A stretch of DNA of 64,000 nucleotides from a virus (IMGVR_UViG_3300042905_004373:1-64000); one strand, 5' to 3'. Numbered from the stretch's first letter, positions 19,364 through 31,012 are shown. The notes: generated from the letters alone by a model not told the origin. A program made the numbers and translations.

Positions 19364-19504
19364 CCGTACCTGAACTGTGACAGTTCAGTAAGTGGCACAC
19401 AAGGGTTGACACCACTGCCAACCCGTGCCATACTAGATTCATCAGCGGGGGTGAAGCATCCCGCTCAAAACACTTCACTCAAACCTTACTTTTTTGTTTT
19501 TATT

Positions 19505-19717: not shown

Positions 19718-19772
19718 TAGCATCTAGAGGGAGATTCTTCTCCCTCTTTCATTCTCTTTCTTGGAGTAATTC

Positions 19773-19919: not shown

Positions 19920-20049
19920 AACTCGACGAGGTGTGCCACATCATCTAGTGGCACATTCAATCTCGACGAGTCATGAGACATCAACTAGATTATGTACATC
20001 TCGACGAGCACATCATGGAAACCGCATTCGTTATTCCAATCTCGAAGAA
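19919..20049. repeat. four copies of (A)ATCTCGACGAG-type repeat plus GTGCCAC-N9-GTGGCAC palindrome
   Basis: copies at 19919, 19959, 19998, 20038; palindrome 19933..19954. Confidence 0.55.
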
Positions 20050-20203
20050 AGCAAAGAATCGCTTTGCAAACATGATGCAATCAAACGATGAATGTATCAT
20101 CGAGCAACACAAAGGAAACAAACTGTTTCTTGCATCTATGAATCAGAAATACTTTTTTTGGGTTTCACTTGACAATGATCCAGACTGGATGGTAGACTTT
20201 TGA
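20015..20203 (+). CDS. hypothetical protein (62 aa)
   Basis: METAFVIPISKKAKNRF...; upstream part of track ORF 19973 overlaps repeats. Confidence 0.35.
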   Translation: METAFVIPISKKAKNRFANMMQSNDECIIEQHKGNKLFLASMNQKYFFWVSLDNDPDWMVDF

Positions 20204-20281
20204 TACACGGGGAATGAGATGCGCCCCATCCTTAAGAAAAGACACTCAATGCGTAGAGAACAGATAATCATAGCATACATG

Positions 20282-20314
20282 ATAGGTGAAAGTGGATCTT
20301 GAGGATCAGGGTGG
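20282..20314 (+). terminator. intrinsic terminator-like hairpin AGGATCAGG-gtggtg-CCTGATCCT + TTTTTCTTTTC
   Basis: perfect 9-bp stem followed by T-run. Confidence 0.55.
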
Positions 20315-20471
20315 TGCCTGATCCTTTTTCTTTTCTTTATCTTATTATTTTTTGACAGGTTCCGTGGCGATGTATTGTTCAGTAGAGATACCCTTCTCCC
20401 GTTGGTGCTGGTTGTCCTCTTAAGATACTGCCAGACTGCCCACAAAACCCTGATGCTGTGCCAGTTCGATC

Positions 20472-20560
20472 AGTGGCACAATGGTGGTTGATCGGGTCGG
20501 TTCTGGCATGGCATCATTCACTCAACGGCGCACCAATGACGCCGCCTCACTTCTAAAATC
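20472..20560 (+). promoter_or_regulatory. Class-B cassette (CAGTGGCACAATGG ...)
   Basis: TGGCACA box upstream of ATG 20561. Confidence 0.35.
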
Positions 20561-21040
20561 ATGAGCAACGCCACTGTTCAAGTTGTTATCAACGGCAACC
20601 AAGTTCAAGGTAAGATTGATGAGATCGCCAAGATTCTGAGCGTTGTAAGTGACACTCTGGCGCCAACAGTTGCTCCTGTTGTTTCTAACAATGTGGAAGA
20701 ACTTGCACTCAAGTTCGTTGACTTTTTTGCCACTGAACTTGATAGTCACATTAGTGGTGGAAAGTTGTTTGTTCATGAACTCAACCGACTGCGCCACAAT
20801 GGTAACACTTACCGTGCCATGATTCGCGTTTATCATGATTTGGTTAATAAAGGTGCGGAAGGATGGGCAAAGCGCCGCCAACTGTTGCTAACTGCCAGCG
20901 CAATCTGGCGTTATACTTTCCGGGGTTCCGAAAAGTCTAAACTTCGCTATCAGATTGAGGCAGTTATTGAATGTGACGATTGTGGGCAGTTTGCTACTGC
21001 AATGGTGAATCGCATGAAGAAAGAGAAACTCTGGGTGTGA
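20561..21040 (+). CDS. hypothetical protein
   Basis: 159 aa. Confidence 0.6.
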   Translation: MSNATVQVVINGNQVQGKIDEIAKILSVVSDTLAPTVAPVVSNNVEELALKFVDFFATELDSHISGGKLFVHELNRLRHNGNTYRAMIRVYHDLVNKGAEGWAKRRQLLLTASAIWRYTFRGSEKSKLRYQIEAVIECDDCGQFATAMVNRMKKEKLWV

Positions 21041-21046
21041 CAATCC

Positions 21047-21132
21047 GATAACTGGCACAAGGGGGGCAGCGATGCCTCCCATCCTGCCCGCTGATGCTGT
21101 AGGATAACTGCAGTTCACACCACACCGCCACC
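21047..21132 (+). promoter_or_regulatory. Class-B cassette (AACTGGCACAAGGGGGGCAGCGATGCCTCCC ... CTGTAGGATAACTGCAGTTCACACCACACC)
   Basis: leader shared with 22406..22443. Confidence 0.45.
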
Positions 21133-21867
21133 ATGCTGAACTTCACCAAGGGTAACGCCAAACTGGGCAAGCAAACTCTGATCTTTAACCTGCCAGCAGG
21201 TAAGACTTGCCCCGGTGCAATGTATTGCAAATCGTTCGTTGTTGTTGATAACGGCGAGCGTCACATTCAAGATGGCGAGCATACTATTTTCCGATGCTTT
21301 GCTGCATCCAGTGAGGTGCAATACGATGCAGCATTCAACAATCGCGCCAACAATCTGCGCCTGATTGTTGATGCTCTGAAGGATGGATCTGCAGCAGATC
21401 TTATCAATGAGGGCATTCAAGAACACCGCACAAAAAATACCAAACTGGTGCGGATTCATGAGAGCGGAGACTTTTTCTCTGGTGCATATTTGGATGCCTG
21501 GATTGAAGTTGCACAGCGCAATCCTGATCTGAAATTCTACTGCTACTCTAAGAGTCTGCAGTTGTTTCTTAACTTTAAGATGCCTGCTAACTTCTACTTC
21601 ACTGCCTCTTATGGTGGCAAATGGGATAGTCTGATTGATGCAGGATTGTTCACTCGTTATGCTAAAGTCTTCATGACCGAAGGTGATGCTAACGCTGCAG
21701 GTCTTGAAGTAGATCATGACGACTCTCACTGTTTCGGTGAGAAACCGTTTGCTCTGTTGGTGCATGGAACTCAACCGAAAGGTTCACTCTGGGGCAAGGC
21801 AATTCGCGCCCGTCGTTCTAATCAACAGTTCAGCGGTTACAGTAAGAAACTGCCTGTGACAGTCTGA
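21133..21867 (+). CDS. conserved-looking hypothetical protein with Cys/His motifs (GKTCPGAMYC ... RIHESGDFF ... HDDSHC)
   Basis: 244 aa; possible metal-binding enzyme. Confidence 0.6.
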   Translation: MLNFTKGNAKLGKQTLIFNLPAGKTCPGAMYCKSFVVVDNGERHIQDGEHTIFRCFAASSEVQYDAAFNNRANNLRLIVDALKDGSAADLINEGIQEHRTKNTKLVRIHESGDFFSGAYLDAWIEVAQRNPDLKFYCYSKSLQLFLNFKMPANFYFTASYGGKWDSLIDAGLFTRYAKVFMTEGDANAAGLEVDHDDSHCFGEKPFALLVHGTQPKGSLWGKAIRARRSNQQFSGYSKKLPVTV

Positions 21868-21947
21868 CCACTGTCCACCACGGGGCGCTCCGGCGCCCCA
21901 TCCTGCCATCCGATCCTGTAGACTTACAGAGTCAACCACACCGCACC
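21868..21947 (+). promoter_or_regulatory. Class-B-like cassette with GGGGCGC-tccg-GCGCCCC hairpin, CATCCTGCC and CTGTAGACTTACAGAGTCAACCACACC leader
   Basis: no TGGCACA box here. Confidence 0.35.
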
Positions 21948-22190
21948 ATGATCCCCGATCCCACCCAGGCAACCGCCATCCTCAACCGCTGCGACGCCTT
22001 CACCGTTGCCGGTGCTACTCTCCCGGTTTGGGAGCGTATCCTTAACGATCTCACAATCCCCACCGACCTTTATGATAAGGTTGAGGATCTCATTGAGATC
22101 CTGGAATACATCGAAGGTTGGCAACCTTCCGATGCTGACATGATCGCCGCGAACAGTTGCGGTACAGCATGGCATGACGGTTGCCGCTGA
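21948..22190 (+). CDS. hypothetical protein
   Basis: 80 aa. Confidence 0.5.
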   Translation: MIPDPTQATAILNRCDAFTVAGATLPVWERILNDLTIPTDLYDKVEDLIEILEYIEGWQPSDADMIAANSCGTAWHDGCR

Positions 22191-22365
22191 TTGATTATAC
22201 TTAAGGGGGCACAAGTTGCCTCCTTTTTTTATACTTTTTGCGCCATTATTTTATGGCAGGTTCGGTGGCGATAGTTGTTCAACCGGCGACCCTGCCGGTG
22301 TTGGTGCTGATTGTCTCCATAGTCTACAGGCACCACAGACCCATAAGACCGCCATGGTGGACAGT

Positions 22366-22443
22366 TCCACAAGTGGCACAACCCCCCATAGACGGATCCG
22401 ATCCCTGTGCTGTAGGATAACTGCAGTTCACCACACCACTCCG
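22366..22443 (+). promoter_or_regulatory. Class-B cassette (CACAAGTGGCACAACC ... GCTGTAGGATAACTGCAGTTCACCACACC)
   Basis: 34-bp exact repeat with 22789..22824. Confidence 0.45.
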
Positions 22444-22698
22444 ATGAACTTCTACAGTTTCTCCTCCCTGAACTTCTTTGATTCCTGTGGTGCCCGCCTG
22501 GCACGACATACCTTTGCGAATGGTTGGGTGATCAGTGTTGCAGCAGGTTCGAAGGATTCTGGAATCTACGGTGACATCGAGCACAATACCTTTGAGGTCG
22601 GGATTATCCGTCCCAATGGTAACATGCTGGAGGATGTTATCAGTTGGCAGACTCCAGAAGAGATCACTACCATAATGGGTGTGATTAAAATGCTATAA
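22444..22698 (+). CDS. hypothetical protein (84 aa)
   Basis: ATG after CACCACACCACTCCG leader; track ORF 22216 extends upstream through cassette (spurious). Confidence 0.5.
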   Translation: MNFYSFSSLNFFDSCGARLARHTFANGWVISVAAGSKDSGIYGDIEHNTFEVGIIRPNGNMLEDVISWQTPEEITTIMGVIKML

Positions 22699-22703
22699 GA
22701 ATC

Positions 22704-22729
22704 GGGAGCATCTTTGCTCCCTTTTTTTA
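22704..22729 (+). terminator. hairpin GGGAGCA-tctt-TGCTCCC + T7
   Basis: stem-loop followed by TTTTTTT; part of 65-bp block duplicated at 23525. Confidence 0.55.
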
Positions 22730-22805
22730 TACCTAACCCCACCAAAAATAGGTTCTACCTTCATCCTAGCACGGCACCCGCCTTCTAATCCGCCATGGTG
22801 GACAG

Positions 22806-22881
22806 TTCCACAAGTGGCACAACCTGATGGCACTGCGCCCCGTCTGCCCCCATACTGGTATCAGTTCACCACACCACTCCG
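22806..22881 (+). promoter_or_regulatory. Class-B cassette (AAGTGGCACAACC ... CCCCATACTGGTATCAGTTCACCACACC)
   Basis: recurrent. Confidence 0.45.
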
Positions 22882-23133
22882 ATGAACTTCTCTGCTCTCA
22901 CCCGCACCATGGTTCGCAGCATCCTCATCCAGCAGGGACCCCAAACCTGCTCCGACATCGTTCGGGGCATGGGACTGGATCCCCGCCGCCATAAGGGCAC
23001 TGTTCACGCTATCATGGTGGACATGGAGCGTGACGGCATCCTGAGCGCCACCATGAAAGGCAAGCGGCGCGATCTCTGGAGCATCAGCACCATCCGCAAG
23101 CGTGACAGGATCCTTGCTGCCCTGATCGGTTGA
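22882..23133 (+). CDS. small basic protein, possible winged-helix DNA-binding regulator
   Basis: 83 aa; ...TCSDIVRGMGLDPRRHKGTVHAIMVDMERDGIL... Confidence 0.5.
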   Translation: MNFSALTRTMVRSILIQQGPQTCSDIVRGMGLDPRRHKGTVHAIMVDMERDGILSATMKGKRRDLWSISTIRKRDRILAALIG

Positions 23134-23216
23134 ACCCCTACGGGGCGCAGAGCGCCCCTTCTACCATGCTCAACGCTCTAACCTGCTCCCGCTCCCCTAA
23201 ATTCCACCGTGCCACC

Positions 23217-23333
23217 ATGCTGCGCCTTCTGATCGCTGCTCTGCTGCTCTACTGGTTCTGGGAACCAATCCGCCCCATCCGCAATGTGACAGGTGAAGCA
23301 CTGTCCACTGCTGCTGAAATGATCCGCCGCTGA
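23217..23333 (+). CDS. 38-aa hydrophobic peptide
   Basis: MLRLLIAALLLYWFWEPIRPI... Confidence 0.3.
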   Translation: MLRLLIAALLLYWFWEPIRPIRNVTGEALSTAAEMIRR

Positions 23334-23368
23334 CCCTGTAGACTTCTCTCAGTTCACACCACTGAACC

Positions 23369-23503
23369 ATGACCTACGCTTTCACTGACGATCTCCAGGT
23401 TGAAGAGTACATCCCCACTGAGGATGATTGGGCATCCTATTATGAGGACGATCAGGCACTTGAAGAGTATTCTCTGGAGTGTGCATTTGGTCCTGAAGAA
23501 TGA
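23369..23503 (+). CDS. acidic mini-protein (44 aa)
   Basis: MTYAFTDDLQVEEYIPTEDDW...; after CAGTTCACACCACTGAACC leader. Confidence 0.35.
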   Translation: MTYAFTDDLQVEEYIPTEDDWASYYEDDQALEEYSLECAFGPEE

Positions 23504-23691
23504 CACAAACTGGGGGGCAATCGCCTCCCTTTTTTTATACCTAACCCCACCAAAAATAGGTTCTACCTTCATCCTAGCACGGCACCCGCACCCCTTGTCA
23601 ATCCCCTGACCCATTAGCATTGCTGATCGTTCAACCCCTTGACTCTGGTGCCGTTTGGGGCAATACTGGTATCAGTTCACCACATTACACA

Positions 23692-24042
23692 ATGACTAAA
23701 CCGACAGAAATTCATCCTGCAATTGCTGCAAATCTTGGATGGGATATTGATGCTGCCTCAAATGATAATTTGGTTACTGTAGTACGCCATCGCATCATTT
23801 TGGAAGAGGTAGTGATGACCAGGGAAGAATTTAATACGATGAATGAAAATGTAAAGAATGAAGAATCTTGTTGGAATGAAATTGAATGGCAAGATGCACA
23901 GTGGGATGATTATTGTGAAGAGCGTACAACCTATACTGCATTTCCCGGAGATGTAACATCATTCACTGATGATTGCGTTGCATTCTTATATCCCGAAGCA
24001 GAATGGGTGGAATGCTTTGAAACTGTGAAATGTGCCAATTGA
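23692..24042 (+). CDS. hypothetical acidic protein (116 aa)
   Basis: in frame with track ORF 23620; ATG after CAGTTCACCACATTACACA leader. Confidence 0.5.
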   Translation: MTKPTEIHPAIAANLGWDIDAASNDNLVTVVRHRIILEEVVMTREEFNTMNENVKNEESCWNEIEWQDAQWDDYCEERTTYTAFPGDVTSFTDDCVAFLYPEAEWVECFETVKCAN

Positions 24043-24044
24043 GG

Positions 24045-24116
24045 CACTGGCACAAGGGGATCGGCAACGGTCCCCACCCATCCTGTAGAATTCTCTCAGT
24101 TCACACCACACCACCC
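24045..24116 (+). promoter_or_regulatory. Class-B cassette (GGCACTGGCACAAGGGGATCGGCAACGGTCCCCACCCATCCTGTAG ... CAGTTCACACCACACC)
   Basis: recurrent. Confidence 0.45.
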
Positions 24117-24239
24117 GTGACTCTCTCACCTGCCACCTCCCTGCAGACTCGCCAACTGGTCTGGGTCCGCAATGGCGTTAAGATTCACTCAGCACCAGCA
24201 GCAACCTGGGCGGCACTGGGGCGCAACGGTCGCCTCTGA
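24117..24239 (+). CDS. possible 40-aa ORF with GTG start
   Basis: leader ends ...CACCCGTG; weak. Confidence 0.25.
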   Translation: MTLSPATSLQTRQLVWVRNGVKIHSAPAATWAALGRNGRL

Positions 24240-24293
24240 TCTGATACAATACAGGGGAGGCACAATCCTCCCCACATTCTTCACCCTTTCATC

Positions 24294-24482
24294 ATGGAAA
24301 CTATTCTCACCCCCGAAGAAATCACCGAACTGAATACTACCGGAAAGGTGACTCTTACCGATGATCTTATGATTCGCATGAAGCAATTCTGCGATCTTGT
24401 TGATACCAAAATCACAGAATCTTATGAGGATTCTGATTGGTTTAATGATCCGAATTGTGTAATGTCAAGGCATCATTATTGA
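24294..24482 (+). CDS. hypothetical protein
   Basis: 62 aa. Confidence 0.45.
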   Translation: METILTPEEITELNTTGKVTLTDDLMIRMKQFCDLVDTKITESYEDSDWFNDPNCVMSRHHY

Positions 24483-24525
24483 ATCTCGTCGAGACGCGCA
24501 CACAAGTTCACATGATCTCGACGAG
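24482..24525. repeat. two copies (one inverted) of ATCTCGACGAG repeat
   Basis: AATCTCGTCGAG (24482) and GATCTCGACGAG (24514). Confidence 0.45.
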
Positions 24526-25094
24526 ATTACACACATTTCACACACATTCGCAACTAGATTCATGTTCATCATTCGTTATCAAACTCCTTACAATAATTGT
24601 GAATGGCGCACACAATCATTCACCACAATTCAAGAGGCAGAAAGAATGATTGCATTTTATAAGTCTTGTGGATCACCTGCAGAGTTAGTTAAATGAATGA
24701 AGAATGAAAGTATAAAGAATAGAGAATGAATCTTAAGTAGTTCTTTATTCTTTATACTTTTCCTGAGCATAAAGAACTAACTCAGGATTAAGTGTAGAAT
24801 GTTAGTCAGTGGTGTGGTTTAGTTTTCTACATTTAGTCCTGTCTTAGTTTTTTATACTTAGCACTGTTTGAGTTTAATTCATTTAGCACTGTTTGAGTTC
24901 TTTATACAAACTGCCTGACGCTGGTGCGATTCCAACCACGCCAACCGCCCATCCGTCAAGCGTTTGACCCATTAGCGTTGCTGATGAATGGGGTTGCCGT
25001 TTGGTATTGGTTGATACAGTCTGCTCGGGGCGCTGGCGGTTAATGTTGTTTCAACGGATCGAAAACGACCTTTCAACCGATCCGCCCCAGACCA

Positions 25095-25433
25095 ATGGCA
25101 AACTCCTACGATCTGCCCGCCGCCATCGTTTCGGATACGCTCGAAACCCTTATGGGGCATCTCGCAACTGCTGACGCTAAGTGTAAAGAGGCGGAGGCAG
25201 AATGCAAGCGTCTGCGTGATGAGATCGCTGGCATCATGATGGCCGCTGATGTAACCTCTGAGCGCACTTGCTGGGGGTTGGTATCACTAACCTCCCGCGA
25301 TAAAGTTACGTATTCTCCCGCGATTAAGGTTCTTGAGATTAACCTTAAGGCAGAAAAGGATAAAGAGGTTGCAACTGGAATCGCTAAAGTTGCAGAGGGT
25401 GATAAGTTTATCCGCGTAACTTGGGCGAAGTAA
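25095..25433 (+). CDS. hypothetical protein
   Basis: 112 aa. Confidence 0.55.
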   Translation: MANSYDLPAAIVSDTLETLMGHLATADAKCKEAEAECKRLRDEIAGIMMAADVTSERTCWGLVSLTSRDKVTYSPAIKVLEINLKAEKDKEVATGIAKVAEGDKFIRVTWAK

Positions 25434-25494
25434 GTTACATTCAGGGGTGACGTTCTCACCCCTATTCTTTACACTTTCCACCGTTATTCTTGTC

Positions 25495-25827
25495 ATGACC
25501 GCTACAATCGACCTACAACCTTACGTGATTCCTTCACACTTTATGTGTGCAATTGTCAACGATGATTATACGGGACTTGATGATAAAGAGGAAGCGATTG
25601 TATCTCAATTCCTAGAAGATTTGGGAGATCGTTATCTTTTTGTTGCCCCATCTGATGAGGATAATTATTTCACACGATGCCATGATTTTCGTGATTATGG
25701 TATCCTTGCCTGCGATTGTGTGGCAGTTGAGATAGCGTTTCGCCCCGAATCCGAACCCGATTATGATGCTGATGACGCTATCTGCAACCGTTACAACAGC
25801 ATCGTCTGCGGCATGTTGCTGGGTTAA
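25495..25827 (+). CDS. hypothetical acidic protein (110 aa)
   Basis: in frame with track ORF 25447. Confidence 0.5.
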   Translation: MTATIDLQPYVIPSHFMCAIVNDDYTGLDDKEEAIVSQFLEDLGDRYLFVAPSDEDNYFTRCHDFRDYGILACDCVAVEIAFRPESEPDYDADDAICNRYNSIVCGMLLG

Positions 25828-25839
25828 TTGTTAGTTAGT

Positions 25840-25904
25840 GGGCGGCAGTTAGGTATACTCTGCCGCCCTAATCACGAACGATTAGTATTCCTTATTCGTT
25901 CGTG
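25840..25904 (+). terminator. tandem hairpins GGGCGGCAG-N11-CTGCCGCCC and CACGAACG-N16-CGTTCGTG + TTT at GC-rich/AT-rich boundary
   Basis: perfect 9-bp and 8-bp stems. Confidence 0.5.
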
Positions 25905-26064
25905 TTTGACAGTTAAGCGATCCTAATTGAAAAACCCAACACTACCCTAACCTACAAAGTGTTACGGAAGCGAGAGAAATATAAGACTCTATAATAAAAA
26001 AATCCCCCCACCAAAAAATTTCAAAAACCCCGCATATATAAAATCAAAACTTATATTCACTCAA

Positions 26065-26238
26065 ATGAAAAAAAATTCCGGGGATATTTTTGCGCCCATA
26101 GAGATCGATCCAATCAGTGGTCAATACTTCATCACAATTCCTGAGCAAATCATGAATGACTTAGAATGGTATGAAGACACAGAAATCTCATTTAATCTTG
26201 AAGGAAATGAACTAATTCTGTCAGAACGCAGTTCTTGA
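26065..26238 (+). CDS. 57-aa AbrB/MazE (SpoVT-AbrB swapped-hairpin)-like protein
   Basis: ISGQYFITIPEQIMNDLEWYEDTEISFNLEGNELIL matches AbrB/MazE-fold pattern (GQvtIPkei...l.eGd.l.i...g..lil). Confidence 0.45.
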   Translation: MKKNSGDIFAPIEIDPISGQYFITIPEQIMNDLEWYEDTEISFNLEGNELILSERSS

Positions 26239-26285
26239 CATCATATAGATAATACTGTATGATACTGAAGTAATTACAAAAAATT

Positions 26286-27044
26286 ATGGCTAAAGGATTT
26301 ACTGTAAAAGCAGCAAAAAGTCCCTCAGTTCAGCAAGAACAAGAATGGGACTATAATTTGGCAAGAGAGATGGTAAGAGGAAAATCTATCGTCTTCTGTC
26401 TGCCTGGCAGGGGAGTTTCTTATACTTACCTCAAGAGTTTTGTTCAACTGTGTTTTGATCTAGTACAGTCAGGAGCAAGTATTCAGATCTCGCAAGACTA
26501 TTCATCCATGGTAAACTTTGCAAGATGCAAATGTTTAGGTGCGAATGTTCTAAGAGGACCGAATCAAATTCCTTGGGATGGAAAACTTCAATATGATTGG
26601 CAACTCTGGATTGACTCAGATATTGTTTTCAATACTGAAAAGTTTTGGCAACTGGTTCTGATGGACAAAGATATTGCGGCAGGTTGGTATGCCACAGAAG
26701 ATGGTCATACAACATCAGTCGCACATTGGTTGGATGAAGAAGATTTCAGAGGAAATGGTGGTGTCATGAATCATGAGACCGTTGAAAGCATTTCCAAGCG
26801 TCGTAAACCATTCACAGTTGACTATACTGGATTTGGCTGGGTTCTGATTAAGAATGGAGTCTTTGAACATTCTGAAATGAAGTATCCTTGGTTTGCTCCA
26901 AAGATGCAAGTCTTTGAATCTGGAGAAGTTCAGGATATGTGTGGAGAAGATGTATCATTCTGTCTGGATGCAATAGAGGCAGGTTTCCAAATTTGGTGCG
27001 ATCCACGTATCAGAGTTGGTCACGAAAAAACAAGAGTGATTTGA
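26286..27044 (+). CDS. glycosyltransferase-like protein (DxD; GEDVSFCLDA...W.DP.IRVGH C-terminal motif)
   Basis: 252 aa; DSD in WIDSDIVF; first gene of AT-rich block. Confidence 0.55.
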   Translation: MAKGFTVKAAKSPSVQQEQEWDYNLAREMVRGKSIVFCLPGRGVSYTYLKSFVQLCFDLVQSGASIQISQDYSSMVNFARCKCLGANVLRGPNQIPWDGKLQYDWQLWIDSDIVFNTEKFWQLVLMDKDIAAGWYATEDGHTTSVAHWLDEEDFRGNGGVMNHETVESISKRRKPFTVDYTGFGWVLIKNGVFEHSEMKYPWFAPKMQVFESGEVQDMCGEDVSFCLDAIEAGFQIWCDPRIRVGHEKTRVI

Positions 27045-27238
27045 TGAGCAACGAGCGTTACAATATTCTCTGTAAGGGAAGAAAAATTTATACTTGTCTT
27101 ACAGAGGAAGAATATTTCAATACAATGGAGGATCTGTCAATTGATTTTTATCAGACAGGTTCTCCAAAACCTGAAGATCTTGAAACTGAAATTTTAGTGG
27201 AGAATAACTTATGGCTACAAAAGCAAAAGGTGGACTGA
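27044..27238 (+). CDS. hypothetical protein (64 aa)
   Basis: TGATGAGC overlap; in frame with track ORF 26939. Confidence 0.4.
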   Translation: MSNERYNILCKGRKIYTCLTEEEYFNTMEDLSIDFYQTGSPKPEDLETEILVENNLWLQKQKVD

Positions 27239-27366
27239 ATAAAAGCAGTTCTTATATTCCTGGACCTCCTAAGAAATCCCGTCAGGGAGATGGAGATGGT
27301 ACTAAGTATTCTGCAACATCTCGTAATGGGGCAAGAAAAAAGTATAGAGGACAGGGGAAAGGATAA
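27211..27366 (+). CDS. small basic protein (51 aa)
   Basis: MATKAKGGLNKSSSYIPGPPKKSRQG...; TAATG overlap with next gene. Confidence 0.3.
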   Translation: MATKAKGGLNKSSSYIPGPPKKSRQGDGDGTKYSATSRNGARKKYRGQGKG

Positions 27367-27956
27367 TGTATCACCTAGATGTCAATGATGAATGGAATCA
27401 TATACATCCATCAGACCTCTGGGTTTATAATAAATTATTTCTAAGTCGGATATTGGGTTATACATGTGGTCCTGTTGGAACCACTGTTCCCGAATCCGAC
27501 TTTTATATTGTTCGTCCATCCTTTAATTTACTCGGAATGGGCCGTCTTGCTCGTAAAGAATGGATAGAAAAAAGCACTGATCATTTTCATCCAGCAGAAT
27601 TTTGGTGTGAGATATTTACTGGTGATCACTTAAGTGTTGATTTTTATCAGCAAAAAGCAGAATTAGTGATCTTAGGTACTAAATCTGAGAATGATCCACT
27701 TTACAAATGGAAAAAGTGGGAAAAAATCAATAAAGAGGTTGAATTTCCTGAAATTTTAAAACAGTTAAAGGGGAACTATGACTATATTAACTGTGAATTT
27801 ATTGGAAATAAGTTAATTGAGGTTCATTTTCGACAAAATCCTAATTTTAGATATGGAAATTCGATTGCTATACCAGTTTGGGACGATGAAAAAATTAAAA
27901 ATATGAATTTTATTGAAGATAGTGACTATTTTCGTAAGGGATTTTATATTCAATAA
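27366..27956 (+). CDS. hypothetical protein
   Basis: 196 aa. Confidence 0.6.
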   Translation: MYHLDVNDEWNHIHPSDLWVYNKLFLSRILGYTCGPVGTTVPESDFYIVRPSFNLLGMGRLARKEWIEKSTDHFHPAEFWCEIFTGDHLSVDFYQQKAELVILGTKSENDPLYKWKKWEKINKEVEFPEILKQLKGNYDYINCEFIGNKLIEVHFRQNPNFRYGNSIAIPVWDDEKIKNMNFIEDSDYFRKGFYIQ

Positions 27957-27979
27957 ATAAATTTTTCGCAAAAAGTAAA

Positions 27980-28321
27980 TTGAAACAGTTTTCGATGGGT
28001 AAACATCTACTTTTAGAGGTTTACAATGTCGATTTTAACCTTTTAAATGACGGAATTGCCATCCAAGCAATTATGGAAAATGGTATAAATCGTGCTGGAA
28101 TGACAATTCTCAACATTTACCAACATTGTTTTATTCCTCAGGGATGTACCATAGTCATTGCCCTTTCAGAAAGTCATGTTTCATGCCATACTTGGCCCGA
28201 AAATGGATGTATTGCGATTGATGTTTATACCTGTGGTGAAGGAAATCCAAAATTAATAGCATTAGAACTACTAAAATACTTAAATTCAGATAATTATAAG
28301 TTAAGAGAATTAGATCGTTAA
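27980..28321 (+). CDS. speD: S-adenosylmethionine decarboxylase proenzyme (SpeD-like, bacterial class I)
   Basis: LSESHVSCHTWPENGCIAIDVYTCG matches SpeD ESHxSxHTWPE...D.ftCG signature; ~110 aa (start may be ATG 27995). Confidence 0.8.
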   Translation: MKQFSMGKHLLLEVYNVDFNLLNDGIAIQAIMENGINRAGMTILNIYQHCFIPQGCTIVIALSESHVSCHTWPENGCIAIDVYTCGEGNPKLIALELLKYLNSDNYKLRELDR

Positions 28322-28327
28322 ATACTT

Positions 28328-28630
28328 ATGGGAGATAGCAACCTCCTTTATAAAAGTTCTGTTTTATTCTTTAAAACAGGAGCTAAAATGTCTAATTTAC
28401 CAGTCGATAGAGATAGTAATTACATGTATGAGATGTGGGGAACTAAAAAATTGATCACTGATTATGATGAAATGAAACCAAAGAGAGTCATTCAAGAAGT
28501 TATGCATGATCTTGCACCGAAGCATAATCTCAAAAAACAGACTGATCTACATGAAAAAATAAGAAACGATGAAGATTATGATGATTGGAATTATGGAACT
28601 GAACCAACATACGGATCATCCTGGAAATAG
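28328..28630 (+). CDS. hypothetical protein
   Basis: 100 aa. Confidence 0.5.
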   Translation: MGDSNLLYKSSVLFFKTGAKMSNLPVDRDSNYMYEMWGTKKLITDYDEMKPKRVIQEVMHDLAPKHNLKKQTDLHEKIRNDEDYDDWNYGTEPTYGSSWK

Positions 28631-28632
28631 GC

Positions 28633-28639
28633 ATAAATA
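28633..28639 (+). promoter_or_regulatory. T4-type late promoter-like ATAAATA
   Basis: CATAAATAG 23 nt before gp25 ATG. Confidence 0.4.
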
Positions 28640-28661
28640 GATAAAGAATTTTCTATGTACA

Positions 28662-29063
28662 ATGGCAATAACTAGGATATCTAGATCCTTTAGAGATATT
28701 AGTTTATCCTTTGAACCACATCCTGTGACTCGTGATCTGCCTATTCTTAATAACGAAAGAGCGATTATAAGATCCGTTCGCAATTTAGTTGAAACAATTC
28801 GTACTGAAAGATTTTTTAATTCTTCTCTCGGTTCAAATGTAAGATCAAGTTTGTTTGAATTTGTCGATTATGCATCAGCATCAATCATACAAGATCAAAT
28901 TAAAGAAGTTGTTACAAATTATGAGCCGAGAGTATCTGATTTAATCGTTCAAGTAGATCCCAAACCAGATTCAAATGAATTTGAAGTGACTATTCAATTT
29001 GTTATTATTGGTCAAGAAATTCCATCTCAACAATTTTCATTCATATTAGAGGCAACAAGATAA
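28662..29063 (+). CDS. 25: baseplate wedge subunit gp25
   Basis: 133 aa (T4 gp25 ~132 aa); NYEPRV core matches T4 gp25 NYEPRI; followed by gp6. Confidence 0.85.
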   Translation: MAITRISRSFRDISLSFEPHPVTRDLPILNNERAIIRSVRNLVETIRTERFFNSSLGSNVRSSLFEFVDYASASIIQDQIKEVVTNYEPRVSDLIVQVDPKPDSNEFEVTIQFVIIGQEIPSQQFSFILEATR

Positions 29064-29064
29064 A

Positions 29065-31011
29065 ATGCCTTTTACAAAATTTACCAATTTAGATTTTGAT
29101 CAGATAAAAACCTCAATCAAAGATTATCTTCGTGCGAATTCAAATTTCACGGACTTTGATTTTGAAGGTTCTAATTTTTCAATTTTAATTGATACATTAG
29201 CATATAACACTTATATTACTGCATTTAATTCAAATATGGTTGTTAATGAGTCTTTTCTAGACTCTGCAACTGTAAGAGAAAATGTCGTGTCCTTGGCAAG
29301 AAATATTGGTTATGTTCCAAAATCCAGAACGGCAGCAAGTGCTGTTGTGTCTTTTAGTGCTCAACCAAAGGTTTTAACGACAACTTTAACTTTACAATCT
29401 GGATTGGTATGTACTGGATCTGTGAGTGGTACTTCTTATGTGTTTTCAATACCAGACAACGTTACTGTTCCTGTTAAAAACAATATTGCCAACTTTAAAA
29501 ATATTACAATTAAACAGGGAACATTTTTAAAAAAGCAATTTACAGTTGATGGATCTATAGATCAAAAATTTATACTAGATAACGCATATATTGATACGTC
29601 CACTATAAGAGTTTATGTGAAGGGAATAAGTGATAATGGAATCGGAAGATCATATAAACAAGTAGATGATATTTTAAATATTGATTCAAATTCTGAAATT
29701 TATTTGATTCAAGAAATCAAAGATGAAAAATACGAAATTATCTTTGGTGATGGAATATTTGGAAAAAAACTTCAGAACAATGAGATTATTACAGTAACTT
29801 ATATCATTACTGACGGAAAAGAAGGAAATGGAGCAGGTTCTTTTACTTTTTCTGGAACATTTCGAGATGAAGATGATAATATTGCAATTTTAAATGATAA
29901 TACAGTAGTAACAATTACAACTTTACAAAATTCTCAGAATGGATCTGATATTGAAAATATTGATTCAATTCGAAATTTTGCACCAAAACTCTATTCAGCA
30001 CAAAATAGGGCTGTTACTGTAAAAGATTATGAGTCAATTATCAAATCAAAAATATATCCAAATACTGAATCAATATCAGTTGTAGGTGGAGAAGAATTAA
30101 TTCCTCCACAATATGGAAAAGTATTGATCAGTATTAAACCAAAAAATGGAACCTTTGTTTCGGATTTTGATAAAAAACAAATAAAGGATAAACTTAAAAA
30201 TTATTCTGTAATTGGTATTAATCCAGAAATTATTGATCTTAAAATATTGTATGTTGAAATTGATTCATCAGTATATTATAATTATTCGAAGATTTCAAGT
30301 ATAGAAGATTTAAAAACTAAAGTAATCAAATCCTTAAATGAATATTCACAATCAACTAATTTGAATTCATTTGGTGGAAGATTCAAATATAGTAAAGTTT
30401 TACAGATAATTGATAATACTGATTTATCAATTACATCAAATATTACAAAGGTAAGAATCAGAAGAGATTTAAAAGTAAAAATTAATGCCCAAACTCAGTA
30501 TGAAATTTGTTATGGAAATAAGTTTCATGTAAATCCTGAAGGTAAAAATATTAAATCTACGGGATTTAAGATTGCAAATGAACCTGATATGGTTTATTTT
30601 ACTGATACTCCTAGGAAAAAATCTGATGGAACTGTATCTAACTTCGGAGACATATCAATTATAAGAGAAAAGTTAACATCAATAACTTCTGAATCTACAC
30701 CAATTTTTAAAACATCAATTGCGGTTCAGTCTGCTGGAGTAGTAAATTATGAAACTGGCGAAATAAAGTTAAATGCGATTACGATTACTTCTACAGTTCT
30801 TAATGAAGATATTATAGAAATACAAGCTTTTCCAGAATCAAATGATATTGTTGGATTAAAAGATCTATATCTATCATTTGATGTTTCAAAAAGTAAAATA
30901 AATATGATTAAAGATATTATGTCTTCTGGTGAAGATATGTCTGGAGTTTTATTCTCTTCTAATGATTATTACAGTTCAAGTTATTCAAATGGGGATCTAA
31001 AGAGGTCGTAA
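29065..31011 (+). CDS. 6: baseplate wedge subunit gp6
   Basis: 648 aa (T4 gp6 ~660); N-terminus FTDFDFEGSNFSILIDTLAYNT ~ T4 gp6 FLDYDFEGSRLNVLCDLLAYNT. Confidence 0.85.
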   Translation: MPFTKFTNLDFDQIKTSIKDYLRANSNFTDFDFEGSNFSILIDTLAYNTYITAFNSNMVVNESFLDSATVRENVVSLARNIGYVPKSRTAASAVVSFSAQPKVLTTTLTLQSGLVCTGSVSGTSYVFSIPDNVTVPVKNNIANFKNITIKQGTFLKKQFTVDGSIDQKFILDNAYIDTSTIRVYVKGISDNGIGRSYKQVDDILNIDSNSEIYLIQEIKDEKYEIIFGDGIFGKKLQNNEIITVTYIITDGKEGNGAGSFTFSGTFRDEDDNIAILNDNTVVTITTLQNSQNGSDIENIDSIRNFAPKLYSAQNRAVTVKDYESIIKSKIYPNTESISVVGGEELIPPQYGKVLISIKPKNGTFVSDFDKKQIKDKLKNYSVIGINPEIIDLKILYVEIDSSVYYNYSKISSIEDLKTKVIKSLNEYSQSTNLNSFGGRFKYSKVLQIIDNTDLSITSNITKVRIRRDLKVKINAQTQYEICYGNKFHVNPEGKNIKSTGFKIANEPDMVYFTDTPRKKSDGTVSNFGDISIIREKLTSITSESTPIFKTSIAVQSAGVVNYETGEIKLNAITITSTVLNEDIIEIQAFPESNDIVGLKDLYLSFDVSKSKINMIKDIMSSGEDMSGVLFSSNDYYSSSYSNGDLKRS

Positions 31012-31012
31012 T

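What the first reader, a model, noticed from the sequence alone, without database searches (positions are those of the whole stretch)
25830..26290. Abrupt base-composition break: about 50–64% GC early block versus about 21–30% GC structural block
Hand counts give about 44% GC at 14.5 kb, 50–64% at 21.9–22.1 kb and about 21% at 33.0 kb. The switch occurs at the double hairpin 25840–25904 and the ATAAATA-rich region before 26286. Codon usage and promoter type change with it (cassettes versus TATAAATA late promoters). T4-like genomes are normally compositionally uniform. This implies either a mosaic phage whose early region was acquired from a higher-GC lineage, a chimeric assembly, or strong expression-class codon selection.
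Basis: seen in the sequence. Interest (0 to 1): 0.55.

Follow-up and report, generated by a model that had tools for sequence, protein, structure and literature searches.

The report
GC step at hyperplastic–core junction
The sharp fall in GC content is real and marks where a freshwater T4-like cyanophage's fast-shuffling block of small, probably early genes meets its conserved baseplate genes; this is a pronounced example of a known phage genome layout, not an assembly error.

Summary
The GC change is real, but it is a two-step staircase rather than one abrupt break: 46.7% (16.25–25.88 kb), then 37.9% (25.88–27.56 kb), then 29.1% (27.56–55.6 kb). The window is a freshwater T4-like cyanophage related to S-SRM01.

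Position 25,828 lies just after the stop codon of the last small ORF, at the foot of a conserved double hairpin. It is the junction between a hyperplastic region of cassette-organised small genes and the conserved core leading into the baseplate module. One metagenomic relative is 99.6% identical downstream of 25,828 but scrambled upstream.

The same step occurs in cultured S-SRM01, in P-SSM2, in S-SKS1 and in 20/20 uncultured relatives, so an assembly chimera is excluded.

Two thirds of the contrast is synonymous (GC3 0.46 vs 0.13). Late genes shift from C/G-ending to A-ending codons (TTA, AGA and others), which are the codons read by the tRNAs S-SRM01 encodes.

No ATAAATA-rich region precedes 26,286; a sigma-70-type promoter does. 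Late motifs resume at 27,953. No donor of the GC-rich genes was found.

This is the known hyperplastic-region/core architecture of T4-like phages combined with class-specific codon usage. It is unusually pronounced but ordinary in kind.

The parts
16251..25880 (.). GC-rich sub-block (46.7% GC) of the hyperplastic region. It holds small ORFs on the + strand, each with a promoter/hairpin cassette and several with T-tract terminators. The peak of 56-60% GC is at 22.7-23.4 kb.
   Evidence: Segmentation; 300-bp profile; per-ORF GC3 0.27-0.77; terminator-like sites 19 vs 7.8±2.7 expected; upstream regions.
22882..23133 (+). 83-aa winged-helix-like ORF. It is the GC-richest gene in the window (60% GC, GC3 0.77). 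It is absent from S-SRM01 but conserved in many uncultured relatives at the same place.
   Evidence: About 498 homologous clusters at 69-96% identity, all in the context GP88…Kyano_Gp96…DUF6926…gp25. No hit in 50,697 phage records.
23678..24104 (+). Cassette indel of about 430 bp: ORF 23692-24042 (116 aa, about 40% GC) plus the following promoter cassette. It is absent from L007. The crossover lies in the repeated leader CAGTTCAC(A)CCACA.
   Evidence: Three-way alignment of the left junction, the right junction and the L007 empty site; blastn map.
24031..24116 (+). Last copy of the repeated regulatory cassette: palindrome TGTGCCA-N10-TGGCACA, a GC hairpin, the -10-like TAGAAT, and a CA-rich leader.
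   Evidence: Repeat families D3, D6 and D9; sequence.
25447..25827 (+). Last ORF of the hyperplastic region (126 aa, weak DUF6926 match). L007 has different genes in its place.
   Evidence: Pfam E = 1.9e-5, below the curated cut-off.
25828..25832 (.). Homology breakpoint with the near-identical relative L007. Sequences are unrelated upstream and 99.6% identical for 4,384 bp downstream.
   Evidence: blastn; base-level alignment.
25840..25868 (+). Hairpin 1 (GGGCGGCAG-N11-CTGCCGCCC). It is a conserved punctuation element at the end of the hyperplastic region and is probably a transcription terminator.
   Evidence: Fold z = -5.5. The stem is conserved at the syntenic site in 12 fetched loci, including S-SRM01. 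Across hairpin-bearing loci, downstream 2 kb conservation is 0.62 vs upstream 0.16, with downstream higher in 27 of 28 pairs.
25873..25904 (+). Hairpin 2 (CACGAACGA…TCGTTCGTG), in tandem with hairpin 1.
   Evidence: it is identical in L007.
25905..26064 (+). A- and C-rich, G-poor intergenic spacer (GC skew about -0.27). It contains TATAAT-like hexamers but no ATAAATA.
26065..26238 (+). 57-aa ORF, the first gene of the conserved collinear core. S-SRM01 annotates its orthologue as a DNA-binding-domain protein; it matches phrog_661. GC3 is 0.35.
   Evidence: the protein is 100% identical in L007.
26235..26263 (+). Sigma-70-type promoter TTGACA-17-TATGAT (11 of 12 matches) in front of the 252-aa gene.
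26286..27044 (+). 252-aa highly conserved cyanomyovirus core gene (phrog_1574, with weak glycosyltransferase similarity). GC is 40.5% and GC3 is 0.31.
   Evidence: at least 600 relatives were found, and the best 80 kept are 85-94% identical.
25881..27555 (.). Intermediate compositional step (37.9% GC).
27953..27959 (+). First late-type promoter motif (ATAAATA) after the hyperplastic region, 21 nt upstream of speD. Further sites are at 28633, 30898, 42738, 44267, 52036, 54240 and 60539.
   Evidence: 11 sites, all on the + strand, with about 32 expected by chance.
27556..55635 (.). AT-rich late/baseplate block (29.1% GC, GC3 0.13, non-coding 17% GC). It holds a 196-aa ORF, speD, gp25, gp6, a gp7-like protein (3,902 aa), gp8, a VriC-like protein (2,434 aa) and neck genes.
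   Evidence: collinear S-SRM01 orthologues with matching GC3.
5157..8476 (+). Control case. This is a TATAAATA-driven island of four ORFs with GC3 0.16-0.20 embedded in the cassette region. It shows that low GC3 follows promoter/gene class, not map position.

Best explanation
WHAT IT IS. Position 25,828 is the junction between two compartments of a freshwater T4-like cyanophage (Kyanoviridae, near S-SRM01).
- Upstream lies a hyperplastic region (HPR). It consists of small genes of unknown function, each in its own promoter/hairpin/terminator cassette.
- Downstream lies the conserved core that runs into the baseplate and late structural module.
- A conserved tandem hairpin (25,840-25,904) closes the HPR.

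WHY TWO STEPS. GC falls in two steps because three gene classes lie in a row:
1. HPR cassettes: 46.7% GC, GC3 0.46.
2. Two conserved genes behind a sigma-70-type promoter: 37.9% GC, GC3 0.32.
3. Late genes behind ATAAATA promoters: 29.1% GC, GC3 0.13.
About two thirds of the contrast is at synonymous sites and about one third is at first codon positions (amino-acid usage).

PROPOSED MECHANISM.
- The bulk late structural genes sit near an AT-biased equilibrium. They are especially rich in A-ending codons (TTA, AGA, GGA, CCA, GTA, GCA, ACA, TCA), which are the codons read by the U34 tRNAs S-SRM01 encodes.
- The HPR genes keep C/G-ending codons like those of GC-rich picocyanobacterial hosts. The most likely reasons are that they are translated immediately after injection by the unmodified host apparatus, and that they circulate among related phages as cassettes instead of being inherited with the core.

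SHOWN HERE: the position and two-step shape of the transition; the recombination breakpoint and cassette indel; conservation of the step and of the hairpin across relatives; the codon pattern.
INFERRED: the temporal class of the HPR genes; terminator function of the hairpin; the tRNA link for this particular phage; and selection as the cause of the high GC3.
For: Position and shape:
- Segmentation and the flat likelihood plateau.
- GC1/GC2/GC3 differences of 0.156 / 0.014 / 0.326 between the two blocks.

HPR/core junction:
- L007 is 99.6% identical over w25828-30210 but mosaic upstream.
- A cassette indel has its crossover in the repeated leader.
- From 26,065 on, every ORF has a collinear S-SRM01 orthologue. 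Upstream only about 40% do, and 21,948-24,042 is absent from S-SRM01.
- Across hairpin-bearing loci, the 2 kb downstream is conserved at 0.62 against 0.16 upstream (27 of 28 pairs). The hairpin is conserved in 12 fetched loci.

Lineage-wide and stable:
- In S-SRM01 the only genome-wide outlier segments are the homologous 42.9% and 31.4% blocks.
- 20 of 20 IMG/VR loci show upstream 0.37-0.60 against downstream 0.28-0.35. P-SSM2 and S-SKS1 show it too.
- Fourfold sites of structural orthologues differ at 0.50-0.59, which is about saturation, yet the contrast persists.

Class rather than position:
- ATAAATA sites occur only on the + strand, upstream of low-GC3 genes, including the island at 5.2-8.5 kb.
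- Median GC3 is 0.40 in 45 cassette-region ORFs and 0.18 in 22 late-class ORFs (Mann-Whitney p = 1e-10).
- S-SRM01 shows tiers: late 0.17, replication 0.29, HPR 0.38-0.48.

Codon and tRNA link:
- In the eight amino-acid families with an S-SRM01 U34 tRNA, the T-ending share is unchanged (0.381 vs 0.380). The A-ending share rises from 0.20 to 0.51. TTA rises from 0.02 to 0.53 and AGA from 0.08 to 0.80.
- The pattern is replicated in S-SRM01: 0.25 / 0.29 / 0.45. The S-SRM01 tRNA list is in PMC8557907.
- In Syn9, UUA, AGA and ACA are enriched in proteins that fail to be translated when host tRNA-Leu(UAA) and tRNA-Arg(UCU) are missing (PMC11726456).
- Cyanomyovirus tRNAs compensate AT-rich codons in GC-rich hosts (PMC3152331).
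Against: - In S-SRM01 the major capsid gene, the most highly expressed late gene, avoids the A-ending codons (share 0.25, TTA 0.03) and prefers T/C-ending ones. A-ending richness is therefore not simply 'optimal late codons'.
- Adjacent HPR cassettes differ widely in GC3 (0.27-0.77). Each gene family keeps its own characteristic GC3 across loci: wHTH 0.53-0.83, GP88 0.37-0.46. A single expression-class pressure does not predict this.
- The HPR part at 1-16 kb has the same kind of cassettes but only 38.8% GC.
- Canonical -35/-10 sigma-70 promoters are not enriched in 16-26 kb (19 vs 16.8±3.7). 'Early promoter' therefore rests on -10-like hexamers and on analogy.
- No tRNA gene lies in this window, so the tRNA set is borrowed from S-SRM01.
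- P-SSM2 infects a low-GC Prochlorococcus, yet it still shows GC3 0.32 vs 0.16.
- No expression data exist for this phage.
Confidence: 0.6

Rival explanations
1. Foreign origin. The GC-rich cassettes were imported from GC-rich donors (picocyanobacterial hosts, or podo-/siphoviruses of those hosts). They still carry the donor's composition, while the core reflects the phage's own AT bias.
For: - The block is demonstrably mosaic and is exchanged independently of the core.
- Neighbouring cassettes have very different GC3 (0.27-0.77), and each family has its own set-point across loci.
- Both G3 and C3 are raised (CTG 0.36, CGC 0.41), as in GC-rich genomes. This differs from the T/C-ending bias of the capsid gene.
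- HPR GC across 39 loci is uncorrelated with core GC3.
- The GP88 family has remote homologues in high-GC actinophages.
Against: - No donor was found. The only hit in genomes representing 185,579 species is a contig collinear with this phage's HPR that was mis-binned into a Bacteroidetes MAG.
- There is no hit for the 60%-GC ORF in 50,697 phage records.
- Its roughly 500 homologous clusters all sit in the same cyanomyovirus context.
- High GC3 persists in orthologues of lineages whose core synonymous sites are saturated, which argues against an un-ameliorated relic.
- The dinucleotide signature of the block is close to the rest of the genome (δ* 47) and to S-SRM01's block (δ* 31). The AT-rich baseplate block is the outlier.
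Confidence: 0.2
2. GC-biased gene conversion or another recombination-linked bias. Frequent recombination at the repeated cassettes raises GC locally at all kinds of site.
For: - The HPR is a recombination hot zone.
- G3 and C3 rise together, and non-coding DNA in the block is also GC-rich (48% vs 17% in the late block).
- Fourfold-site divergence of shared HPR genes (0.34-0.35 for GP88 and h17062) is lower than in the core (0.50-0.59), consistent with recent exchange.
Against: - GC2 is unchanged.
- Adjacent cassettes range from GC3 0.27 to 0.77. Inserted elements stay AT-rich, for example the HNH genes in relatives (GC3 0.20-0.21) and ORF 23692-24042.
- The non-coding GC is largely made of functional hairpins and leaders.
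- From my own knowledge, biased conversion has not been shown for T4-type recombination.
Confidence: 0.1
3. Protein-composition effect. The giant repetitive baseplate and fibre proteins are rich in Asn, Ile, Ser and Thr, and this alone makes the block AT-rich.
For: - Asn 8.5 vs 4.6%, Ile 9.9 vs 6.0% and Ser 11.2 vs 6.9% in late vs early ORFs.
- GC1 is 0.381 in late vs 0.537 in early ORFs.
- The rise from 29% to 35% at 55.6 kb is mostly due to GC1 and GC2.
Against: - It accounts for only about one third of the difference. The change in GC3 (0.326) supplies about two thirds, and GC2 differs by only 0.014.
- Non-repetitive late genes (gp25, gp8, tube) also have GC3 of 0.15-0.19.
Confidence: 0.05
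4. Chimeric assembly joining two different genomes at about 25.8-26.3 kb.
For: None beyond the composition step itself.
Against: - The junction and its hairpin are reproduced in a cultured complete genome and in many independent contigs.
- Both sides belong to the same syntenic cyanomyovirus arrangement.
Confidence: 0.01

Closest known systems
Hyperplastic regions (HPRs) and promoter-early stem-loop (PeSL) cassettes of T4-type phages (Arbiol et al. 2010, PMC2839356; Comeau et al. 2014, PMC4122927)
   Same: - Blocks of small ORFans lie between conserved core modules.
- Repeated intergenic cassettes combine a promoter element and a stem-loop.
- Close relatives differ by insertion, deletion or replacement of cassettes, with crossovers inside the repeated motif (definitions).
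   Different: - The described PeSLs are from phages of enterobacteria and vibrios and have near-consensus -35/-10 sigma-70 promoters. Here there is a 24-bp palindrome (TGTGNCA-N10-TGNCACA), a GC hairpin, a -10-like hexamer and a CA-rich leader, with no enrichment of canonical -35/-10 pairs.
- Those papers, as far as I read them, do not report a GC contrast between HPR and core.
- S-PM2 was reported to lack dense PeSLs (PMC4503421).
Class-dependent codon usage and tRNA compensation in T4-like phages. For T4, early vs late genes (Cowe & Sharp 1991, recalled from my own knowledge and not read here). For cyanomyoviruses, PMC3152331 and Syn9 in PMC11726456.
   Same: - The phage genes are AT-rich relative to GC-rich hosts.
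- Phage-encoded tRNAs read A/U-ending codons.
- UUA, AGA and ACA are critical for translation of morphogenesis proteins.
- The same codons carry the early-to-late shift here.
   Different: - The amplitude here is large (GC3 0.46 vs 0.13, and locally 0.77 vs 0.12), and it is concentrated at one map junction.
- The capsid gene departs from the late pattern.
- Temporal classes here are inferred from motifs, not measured.
Variable regions of marine cyanomyoviruses: the S-PM2 'ORFanage' (Puxty et al. 2015, PMC4503421) and the 'hyperplastic region' of Millard et al. 2009 (seen only as a cited title)
   Same: A contiguous run of small genes of unknown function that is variable between relatives and dispensable in culture. 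Its homologues are frequent in freshwater metagenomes.
   Different: - The S-PM2 region was judged not to be PeSL-mediated.
- No compositional staircase or conserved boundary hairpin is described in the text I read.
Horizontally acquired genomic islands recognised by atypical GC
   Same: A local GC anomaly with sharp borders and variable gene content.
   Different: - The oligonucleotide signature is not atypical.
- No donor was found and no mobility genes lie at the borders in this window.
- The anomaly is conserved at the same locus across a whole phage lineage.

Membership tests
T4-like cyanomyovirus (Kyanoviridae) baseplate/late module | Recognisable gp25 and gp6 baseplate wedge proteins followed by giant gp7-like, gp8 and downstream neck/sheath/tube genes in T4-like order | tested here: met
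   Pfam GPW_gp25 (E = 1e-10) and Gp6-like domains (E = 3e-17). Collinear orthologues of S-SRM01 genes annotated as baseplate wedge, neck, sheath, terminase and tube.
Hyperplastic region (HPR) of T4-type phages | Cluster of small genes of unknown function lying between conserved core modules | tested here: met
   About 60 small + strand ORFs in 0-25.8 kb, with almost no Pfam or PHROG assignments. The conserved core starts at 26,065.
Hyperplastic region (HPR) of T4-type phages | Gene content differs between close relatives while the flanking core is conserved | tested here: met
   L007 is 99.6% identical downstream of 25,828, with different genes and 77-95% patches upstream. Across 28 locus pairs, downstream conservation is 0.62 vs upstream 0.16.
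PeSL regulatory cassettes | Repeated intergenic motif containing a stem-loop, concentrated in the HPR upstream of ORFans | tested here: met
   Repeat families D2-D9 and D12, with about 20 copies from 0.45 to 24.1 kb and none beyond. Terminator-like hairpins are enriched, 19 vs 7.8±2.7.
PeSL regulatory cassettes | Strong sigma-70-like promoter (-35 TTGACA, about 17 nt, -10 TATAAT) within the motif | tested here: inconclusive
   -10-like hexamers (TATAAT, TATACT, TAGGAT, TAGACT) are present in the cassettes. Canonical -35/-10 pairs are not enriched in 16-26 kb (19 vs 16.8±3.7). Promoter activity was not tested.
PeSL regulatory cassettes | Insertions/deletions between close relatives bounded by the motif, with the crossover inside it | tested here: met
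   The indel of ORF 23692-24042 has its crossover in the leader CAGTTCAC(A)CCACA. This is one case only. Mini-circles were not testable.
Temporal-class codon usage with phage tRNA compensation | Codon usage differs systematically between gene classes defined independently of composition | tested here: met
   Classes were defined by the ATAAATA motif or structural annotation vs the cassette region. Median GC3 is 0.18 vs 0.40, p = 1e-10. S-SRM01 classes defined by annotation give 0.17 / 0.29 / 0.38-0.48.
Temporal-class codon usage with phage tRNA compensation | Codons enriched in late genes are those read by the phage's own tRNAs | tested here: inconclusive
   This is met when the S-SRM01 tRNA set is used. 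However, no tRNA gene lies in this window, and the S-SRM01 capsid gene avoids these codons.
Temporal-class codon usage with phage tRNA compensation | Measured early vs late expression of the two blocks | not testable with these tools
   No transcriptome is available for this phage or for S-SRM01. The inference rests on motifs only.
Horizontally acquired island from a GC-rich donor | Oligonucleotide signature atypical for the recipient genome | tested here: not met
   δ*(×1000) of block 16.25-25.88 kb is 47 to 1-16.25 kb and 31 to S-SRM01's GC-rich block. The AT-rich block is the outlier at 95-142.
Horizontally acquired island from a GC-rich donor | Identifiable homologues in a plausible donor (host or GC-rich phage) | tested here: not met
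   Only cyanomyovirus contexts were found, apart from remote (30-37% identity) GP88 homologues in actinophages. Only two gene families were searched in depth.
Assembly chimera | Junction not reproduced in independent assemblies or isolates | tested here: not met
   The junction is reproduced in S-SRM01, P-SSM2, S-SKS1 and in more than 20 metagenomic contigs.

The most novel reading that the evidence does not exclude
The GC-rich block is a horizontally circulating pool of immediate-early gene cassettes. Selection holds its codon usage at a host-like, GC-rich set-point because these genes must be translated by the unmodified host apparatus before phage tRNAs accumulate. The late core, in contrast, is free to drift to extreme AT.

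If this is so, the GC3 of this block should track host GC. In this study it varies from 0.37 to 0.60 in overall GC across relatives while the late block stays at 0.28-0.35. It rises in the order P-SSM2, S-SKS1, S-SRM01, this phage. That would give a sequence-only read-out of host class for uncultured cyanomyoviruses.

The cassettes themselves would be a cyanophage variant of PeSLs built on a palindrome plus a -10 element instead of a -35/-10 promoter.
Probability: 0.25. Interest if true: 0.55.

Novelty: new member of a known kind. Interest (0 to 1): 0.35.

Why it matters
- It removes a possible false alarm. An 18-point GC step inside one contig could be taken for a chimera or a recent foreign insertion. 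Here it is a conserved architectural feature of a whole group of cyanomyoviruses.
- It gives a base-precise landmark (25,828 and the conserved hairpin) separating a recombining accessory compartment from the vertically inherited core. That is useful for annotation, for binning (one such fragment was found mis-binned in a Bacteroidetes MAG) and for population-genomic studies of cassette exchange.
- It extends PeSL-style modular shuffling to freshwater cyanophages.
- It links the composition contrast to the codon/tRNA dependence recently shown experimentally for Syn9. This suggests that early and late genes of these phages face different translational constraints.

Tried and rejected
- tRNA genes or structured RNAs as the cause of the GC peak: none found by ARAGORN or Rfam.
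- 'ATAAATA-rich region before 26286': not present.
- Canonical sigma-70 promoter enrichment in the GC-rich block: not found.
- Host origin of the 60%-GC ORF. The genome-contig scan gave only a mis-binned phage contig, and tblastn against phage isolates gave nothing.
- Pfam and PHROG annotation of HPR ORFs and of the 5.2-8.5 kb island gave essentially nothing.
- Regional GC pressure acting on orthologues. Correlations of HPR-gene GC3 with the surrounding HPR GC were positive but weak and non-significant (r = 0.2-0.7, n = 7-10).
- Dinucleotide-signature test. It did not mark the GC-rich block as alien, and segments of about 5 kb are noisy (B1 vs B2 δ* = 125).
- Polarised substitution analysis was not attempted. 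L007, found late, is nearly identical in the core but covers only 8.6 kb and is mosaic in the HPR. All other relatives found are at or near synonymous saturation.
- Errors corrected:
  - and four rows used hand-entered ORF starts that were off by 1-2 nt (the correct starts are 22444, 23166, 23692 and 24117). The codon analysis was repeated with checked frames, and the conclusions were unchanged or sharper. The amino-acid percentages quoted come from that first run and were not recomputed.
  - The summary statistics omitted two loci and were recomputed.
- The Syn9 transcriptome paper (Doron et al. 2016) is not in the searchable library. Statements about early-gene clusters in cyanomyoviruses therefore rest on my own knowledge and on motifs.
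Full report
WHAT THE WINDOW IS

All long ORFs lie on the + strand. Megablast and tblastn place the window next to the freshwater Synechococcus myovirus S-SRM01 (Kyanoviridae, Serangoonvirus), with P-SSM2 and S-SKS1 more distant. Pfam recognises S-adenosylmethionine decarboxylase, gp25 and gp6 just downstream of the finding. These are followed by a 3,902-aa gp7-like and a 2,434-aa VriC-like protein and then by neck, sheath, terminase and tube genes. All are collinear with S-SRM01. No tRNA and no Rfam family is present in the window.

CHECKING THE OBSERVATION

A 1-kb profile shows 44-52% GC at 16-26 kb and 26-32% at 29-55 kb. Maximum-likelihood segmentation gives five segments:
- 1-16250: 38.8%
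- 16251-25880: 46.7%
- 25881-27555: 37.9%
- 27556-55635: 29.1%
- 55636-64000: 35.0%

The single best split (414 nats) is at about 27,550. The likelihood is flat between 25.75 and 27.75 kb, so the descent is a two-step staircase.

The hairpins at 25840-25868 and 25873-25904 are real (MFE -38.6 kcal/mol, z = -5.5). They were too extreme at 33.0 kb (25.9%, not 21%) and at 14.5 kb (37.8%, not 44%).

The 'ATAAATA-rich region before 26286' does not exist. TATAAATA occurs three times (5157, 42737, 60538). ATAAATA occurs 11 times, all on the + strand, against about 32 expected on both strands, and with none between 6,224 and 27,953. The ORF at 26,286 is preceded by TTGACA-17-TATGAT.

WHERE THE GC DIFFERENCE SITS

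Per-gene analysis shows GC3 of 0.12-0.19 in almost every structural gene and 0.27-0.77 in the small ORFs of 16-26 kb. Pooled values are:
- Early block: GC1 0.537, GC2 0.383, GC3 0.457.
- Late block: GC1 0.381, GC2 0.369, GC3 0.131.

About two thirds of the difference is therefore synonymous, about one third is first-position (amino-acid) usage, and almost none is second-position. Non-coding DNA is 48% GC in the early block, where it consists of hairpins and leaders, and 17% in the late block. The rise from 29% to 35% at 55.6 kb is mainly a GC1/GC2 effect.

NOT A CHIMERA: A LINEAGE FEATURE

S-SRM01 is collinear across the junction. In its complete 240,842-bp genome (35.6% GC, 1-kb SD 3.5 points) the only outlier segments are 85,441-94,280 (42.9%) and 94,281-124,640 (31.4%). 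These are homologues of the window's two blocks.

Two metagenomic contigs found through a GC-rich ORF (L007, L008) show the same staircase. Around the highly conserved 252-aa gene, 20 of 20 IMG/VR loci with both flanks have an upstream GC of 0.37-0.60 and a downstream GC of 0.28-0.35. The difference ranges from 0.09 to 0.30, and the window's 0.21 is mid-range.

The isolates P-SSM2 (39 -> 32%) and S-SKS1 (41 -> 30%) show a weaker version. Fourfold sites of structural orthologues between the window and S-SRM01 differ at 0.50-0.59, essentially saturation for that base composition. The contrast is therefore old and maintained.

WHAT THE BOUNDARY IS

The contig L007 is 99.6% identical to the window over 4,384 bp, from 25,828 to its end. 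The 57-aa and 252-aa proteins are 100% identical. Upstream of 25,828 it carries different genes: a DUF6011 protein and two small ORFs in place of ORFs 25095-25433 and 25447-25827. Further upstream there are only rearranged patches of 77-95% identity. At base level, identity starts at 25,828, immediately after the stop codon of the last small ORF.

The first hairpin's stem is conserved at the syntenic position in 12 fetched loci, including S-SRM01. Among hairpin-bearing loci, the 2 kb downstream is much better conserved than the 2 kb upstream: 0.62 vs 0.16 identity × coverage, with downstream higher in 27 of 28 pairs.

Against S-SRM01, every ORF from 26,065 onward has a collinear orthologue with matching GC3. 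Upstream only about 40% do, and the highest-GC stretch (21,948-24,042) is missing from S-SRM01.

ANATOMY OF THE GC-RICH BLOCK

A repeated intergenic cassette occurs about 20 times between 0.45 and 24.1 kb and never beyond. It consists of:
- a 24-bp palindrome, TGTG(A/C)CA-N10-TGGCACA;
- a GC-rich hairpin;
- a -10-like hexamer (TATAAT, TATACT, TAGGAT or TAGACT);
- a CA-rich leader running up to the start codon.

Several small genes end in canonical GC-hairpin + T7 terminators. Terminator-like sites are enriched (19 vs 7.8±2.7), but canonical -35/-10 pairs are not (19 vs 16.8±3.7).

One cassette, ORF 23692-24042 with its downstream promoter, is an indel relative to L007. The crossover lies inside the repeated leader CAGTTCAC(A)CCACA. 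This is the behaviour described for PeSL cassettes in hyperplastic regions of T4-type coliphages and vibriophages (PMC2839356, PMC4122927). The promoter architecture differs, however.

CLASS VERSUS POSITION

Low GC3 follows the late-promoter motif, not map position. The four ORFs at 5189-8476 sit inside the cassette region, lie behind TATAAATA/ATAAATA and have GC3 of 0.16-0.20. Median GC3 is 0.40 in 45 cassette-region ORFs and 0.18 in 22 late-class ORFs (p = 1e-10).

In S-SRM01, where gene functions are annotated, GC3 is graded:
- Late structural genes: median 0.17.
- Core replication and recombination genes: median 0.29.
- ORFs of the GC-rich block: 0.38-0.48.
- The major capsid gene is an outlier at 0.40, and scaffold and sheath are at about 0.25.

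WHICH CODONS CHANGE

S-SRM01 encodes U34 tRNAs for eight amino-acid families: Leu-UAA, Leu-UAG, Ala-UGC, Arg-UCU, Thr-UGU, Gly-UCC, Val-UAC, Ser-UGA and Pro-UGG (PMC8557907). Within those families in the window:
- The T-ending share is the same in early and late genes (0.381 vs 0.380).
- The A-ending share rises from 0.20 to 0.51, at the expense of C (0.25 -> 0.055) and G (0.17 -> 0.06).
- TTA goes from 0.02 to 0.53 of Leu codons, and AGA from 0.08 to 0.80 of Arg codons.

S-SRM01 itself shows the same gradient: 0.25 in the HPR, 0.29 in replication genes and 0.45 in late genes.

In the related Syn9, UUA, AGA and ACA are enriched in the proteins that fail to be translated in a Synechococcus lacking tRNA-Leu(UAA) and tRNA-Arg(UCU) (PMC11726456). 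Cyanomyovirus tRNAs have been interpreted as compensation for AT-rich codons in GC-rich hosts (PMC3152331).

There is one caveat. The S-SRM01 capsid gene avoids these A-ending codons (share 0.25, TTA 0.03) and prefers T/C-ending ones. The A-richness of the bulk late genes therefore looks like weak codon selection plus AT drift, made tolerable by phage tRNAs, rather than positive selection for 'optimal late codons'.

IS THE GC-RICH BLOCK FOREIGN?

Evidence against a foreign origin:
- The GC-richest ORF (22882-23133, 60% GC) has about 500 homologous clusters at 69-96% identity. All that were examined lie in the same cyanomyovirus neighbourhood.
- It has no hit among 50,697 phage isolates.
- Its only hit in genomes representing 185,579 species is a contig collinear with this phage's hyperplastic region, mis-binned in a Bacteroidetes MAG.
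- GP88-like has only remote actinophage homologues.
- The dinucleotide signature of the block is close to the rest of the genome (δ* 47) and to S-SRM01's block (31). The AT-rich baseplate block is the outlier.

Evidence in favour of a cassette-specific history:
- Adjacent cassettes differ widely in GC3 (0.27-0.77).
- Each family keeps a characteristic GC3 across loci.
- HPR GC is uncorrelated with core GC3 over 39 loci.
- G3 and C3 rise together.

Import from a GC-richer gene pool in the deeper past is therefore not excluded. It has no positive support, and it cannot by itself explain persistence across lineages with saturated synonymous divergence.

VERDICT

- Chimeric assembly is rejected.
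- 'Mosaic' is right for the block's mode of evolution, but a GC-rich donor is not shown.
- 'Expression-class codon usage' is right as a pattern but probably not as 'strong selection'.

What is present is the junction between a hyperplastic region and the conserved core of a T4-like cyanophage, marked by a conserved tandem hairpin. Three gene classes of different synonymous composition lie in a row across it. This is a pronounced new example of known phenomena: HPR/PeSL architecture, and class-specific codon usage with tRNA compensation.

The part I could not settle is why the hyperplastic cassettes stay GC-rich. I favour host-like codon usage for immediately translated genes combined with horizontal circulation of cassettes (confidence about 0.6 for the whole picture). 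Foreign origin (0.2) and recombination-linked GC bias (0.1) are the main rivals.

Noticed in passing
window 450-24116 (e.g. 8634-8693, 12765-12822, 13421-13478, 17514-17595, 18378-18459, 21036-21132, 24031-24116): There are about 20 copies of a composite intergenic cassette. It consists of a palindrome TGTG(A/C)CA-N10-TGGCACA, a GC hairpin, a -10-like hexamer and a CA-rich leader. Three leader subfamilies map to different sub-blocks: TATAAT…TCTCATACACACA at 0.45-14.8 kb, TATACTTAAGAAGTCAACC at 17.5-18.4 kb, and CTGTAGNNT…CAGTTCACACCACACC at 16.3 and 21.1-24.1 kb. It resembles PeSLs but lacks a canonical -35 element.
   Followed up: partly
window 15810-15893, 19960-20009, 24483-24527: The palindrome ATCTCG(A/T)CGAGAT occurs at 7 sites in three clusters (11 strand-wise matches against 0.26 expected). 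Each cluster lies just upstream of an ORF start (15897, 19973, 24562), so it looks like an operator for a phage DNA-binding protein.
   Followed up: partly
window 22349-22383 = 22790-22824; 22424-22453 = 22862-22891; 22717-22781 = 23525-23589: Perfectly identical duplicated segments (30-65 nt) of promoter, leader and post-terminator sequence within 1.2 kb. This indicates very recent duplication or conversion among neighbouring cassettes.
   Followed up: partly
window 5157-8476: An island of four late-type ORFs (342, 205, 274 and 260 aa; GC3 0.16-0.20, GC2 about 0.49) sits behind TATAAATA inside the cassette region. ORFs 6873-7697 and 7694-8476 are paralogues that share 78-112-nt repeats at 92-94% identity. 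None has a Pfam or PHROG match.
   Followed up: partly
window 12833-13330 (ORF 12822-13430): A tandem array of a 15-nt unit with more than 20 copies, i.e. a five-residue repeat protein (50% GC). It is flanked by two 100%-identical cassettes at 12765-12822 and 13421-13478.
   Followed up: no
window 9516-9574 and 9857-9915: A 59-nt direct repeat, 98% identical, covering the 3' end or leader region in front of two small ORFs (9570 and 9911).
   Followed up: no
window, whole (sites at 5158, 6214, 6218, 27953, 28633, 30898, 42738, 44267, 52036, 54240, 60539): ATAAATA is strongly under-represented (11 vs about 32 expected) and is found only on the + strand, nearly always shortly upstream of gene starts. 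This is consistent with selection against spurious late promoters.
   Followed up: partly
window 31013-42721 and 44372-51676: Two giant ORFs (3,902 aa gp7-like, 2,434 aa VriC-like) with GC3 of 0.119 form the compositional minimum of the window. Their block has the most deviant dinucleotide signature (δ* 95-142 to the other blocks).
   Followed up: partly
L091 (JAIYDG010000246.1, 'Bacteroidetes bacterium' MAG, pond): This 7.9-kb contig is collinear with the window's hyperplastic region (homologues of ORFs from 15.9 to 25.4 kb, 44-90% aa identity, 46% GC). It is almost certainly a cyanomyovirus fragment mis-binned into a bacterial MAG.
   Followed up: yes
S-SRM01 (MW015081) 137128-138543: The major capsid gene has GC3 of 0.40 against 0.14-0.25 for the other structural genes. 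It uses T/C-ending codons (CGT 0.55, GGT 0.65, ACC 0.39; TTA 0.03), a separate high-expression codon regime.
   Followed up: partly
L007 2443-2640: The near-identical relative carries a short tandem repeat (translating as MIRIL…/IRIRI…) in its hyperplastic region that is absent from the window.
   Followed up: no
window 17062-17532 and 21133-21867 vs S-SRM01: Shared hyperplastic-region genes show lower fourfold-site divergence (0.34-0.35) than core structural genes (0.50-0.59) at similar amino-acid identity. This hints at more recent exchange or at constraint on synonymous sites.
   Followed up: no
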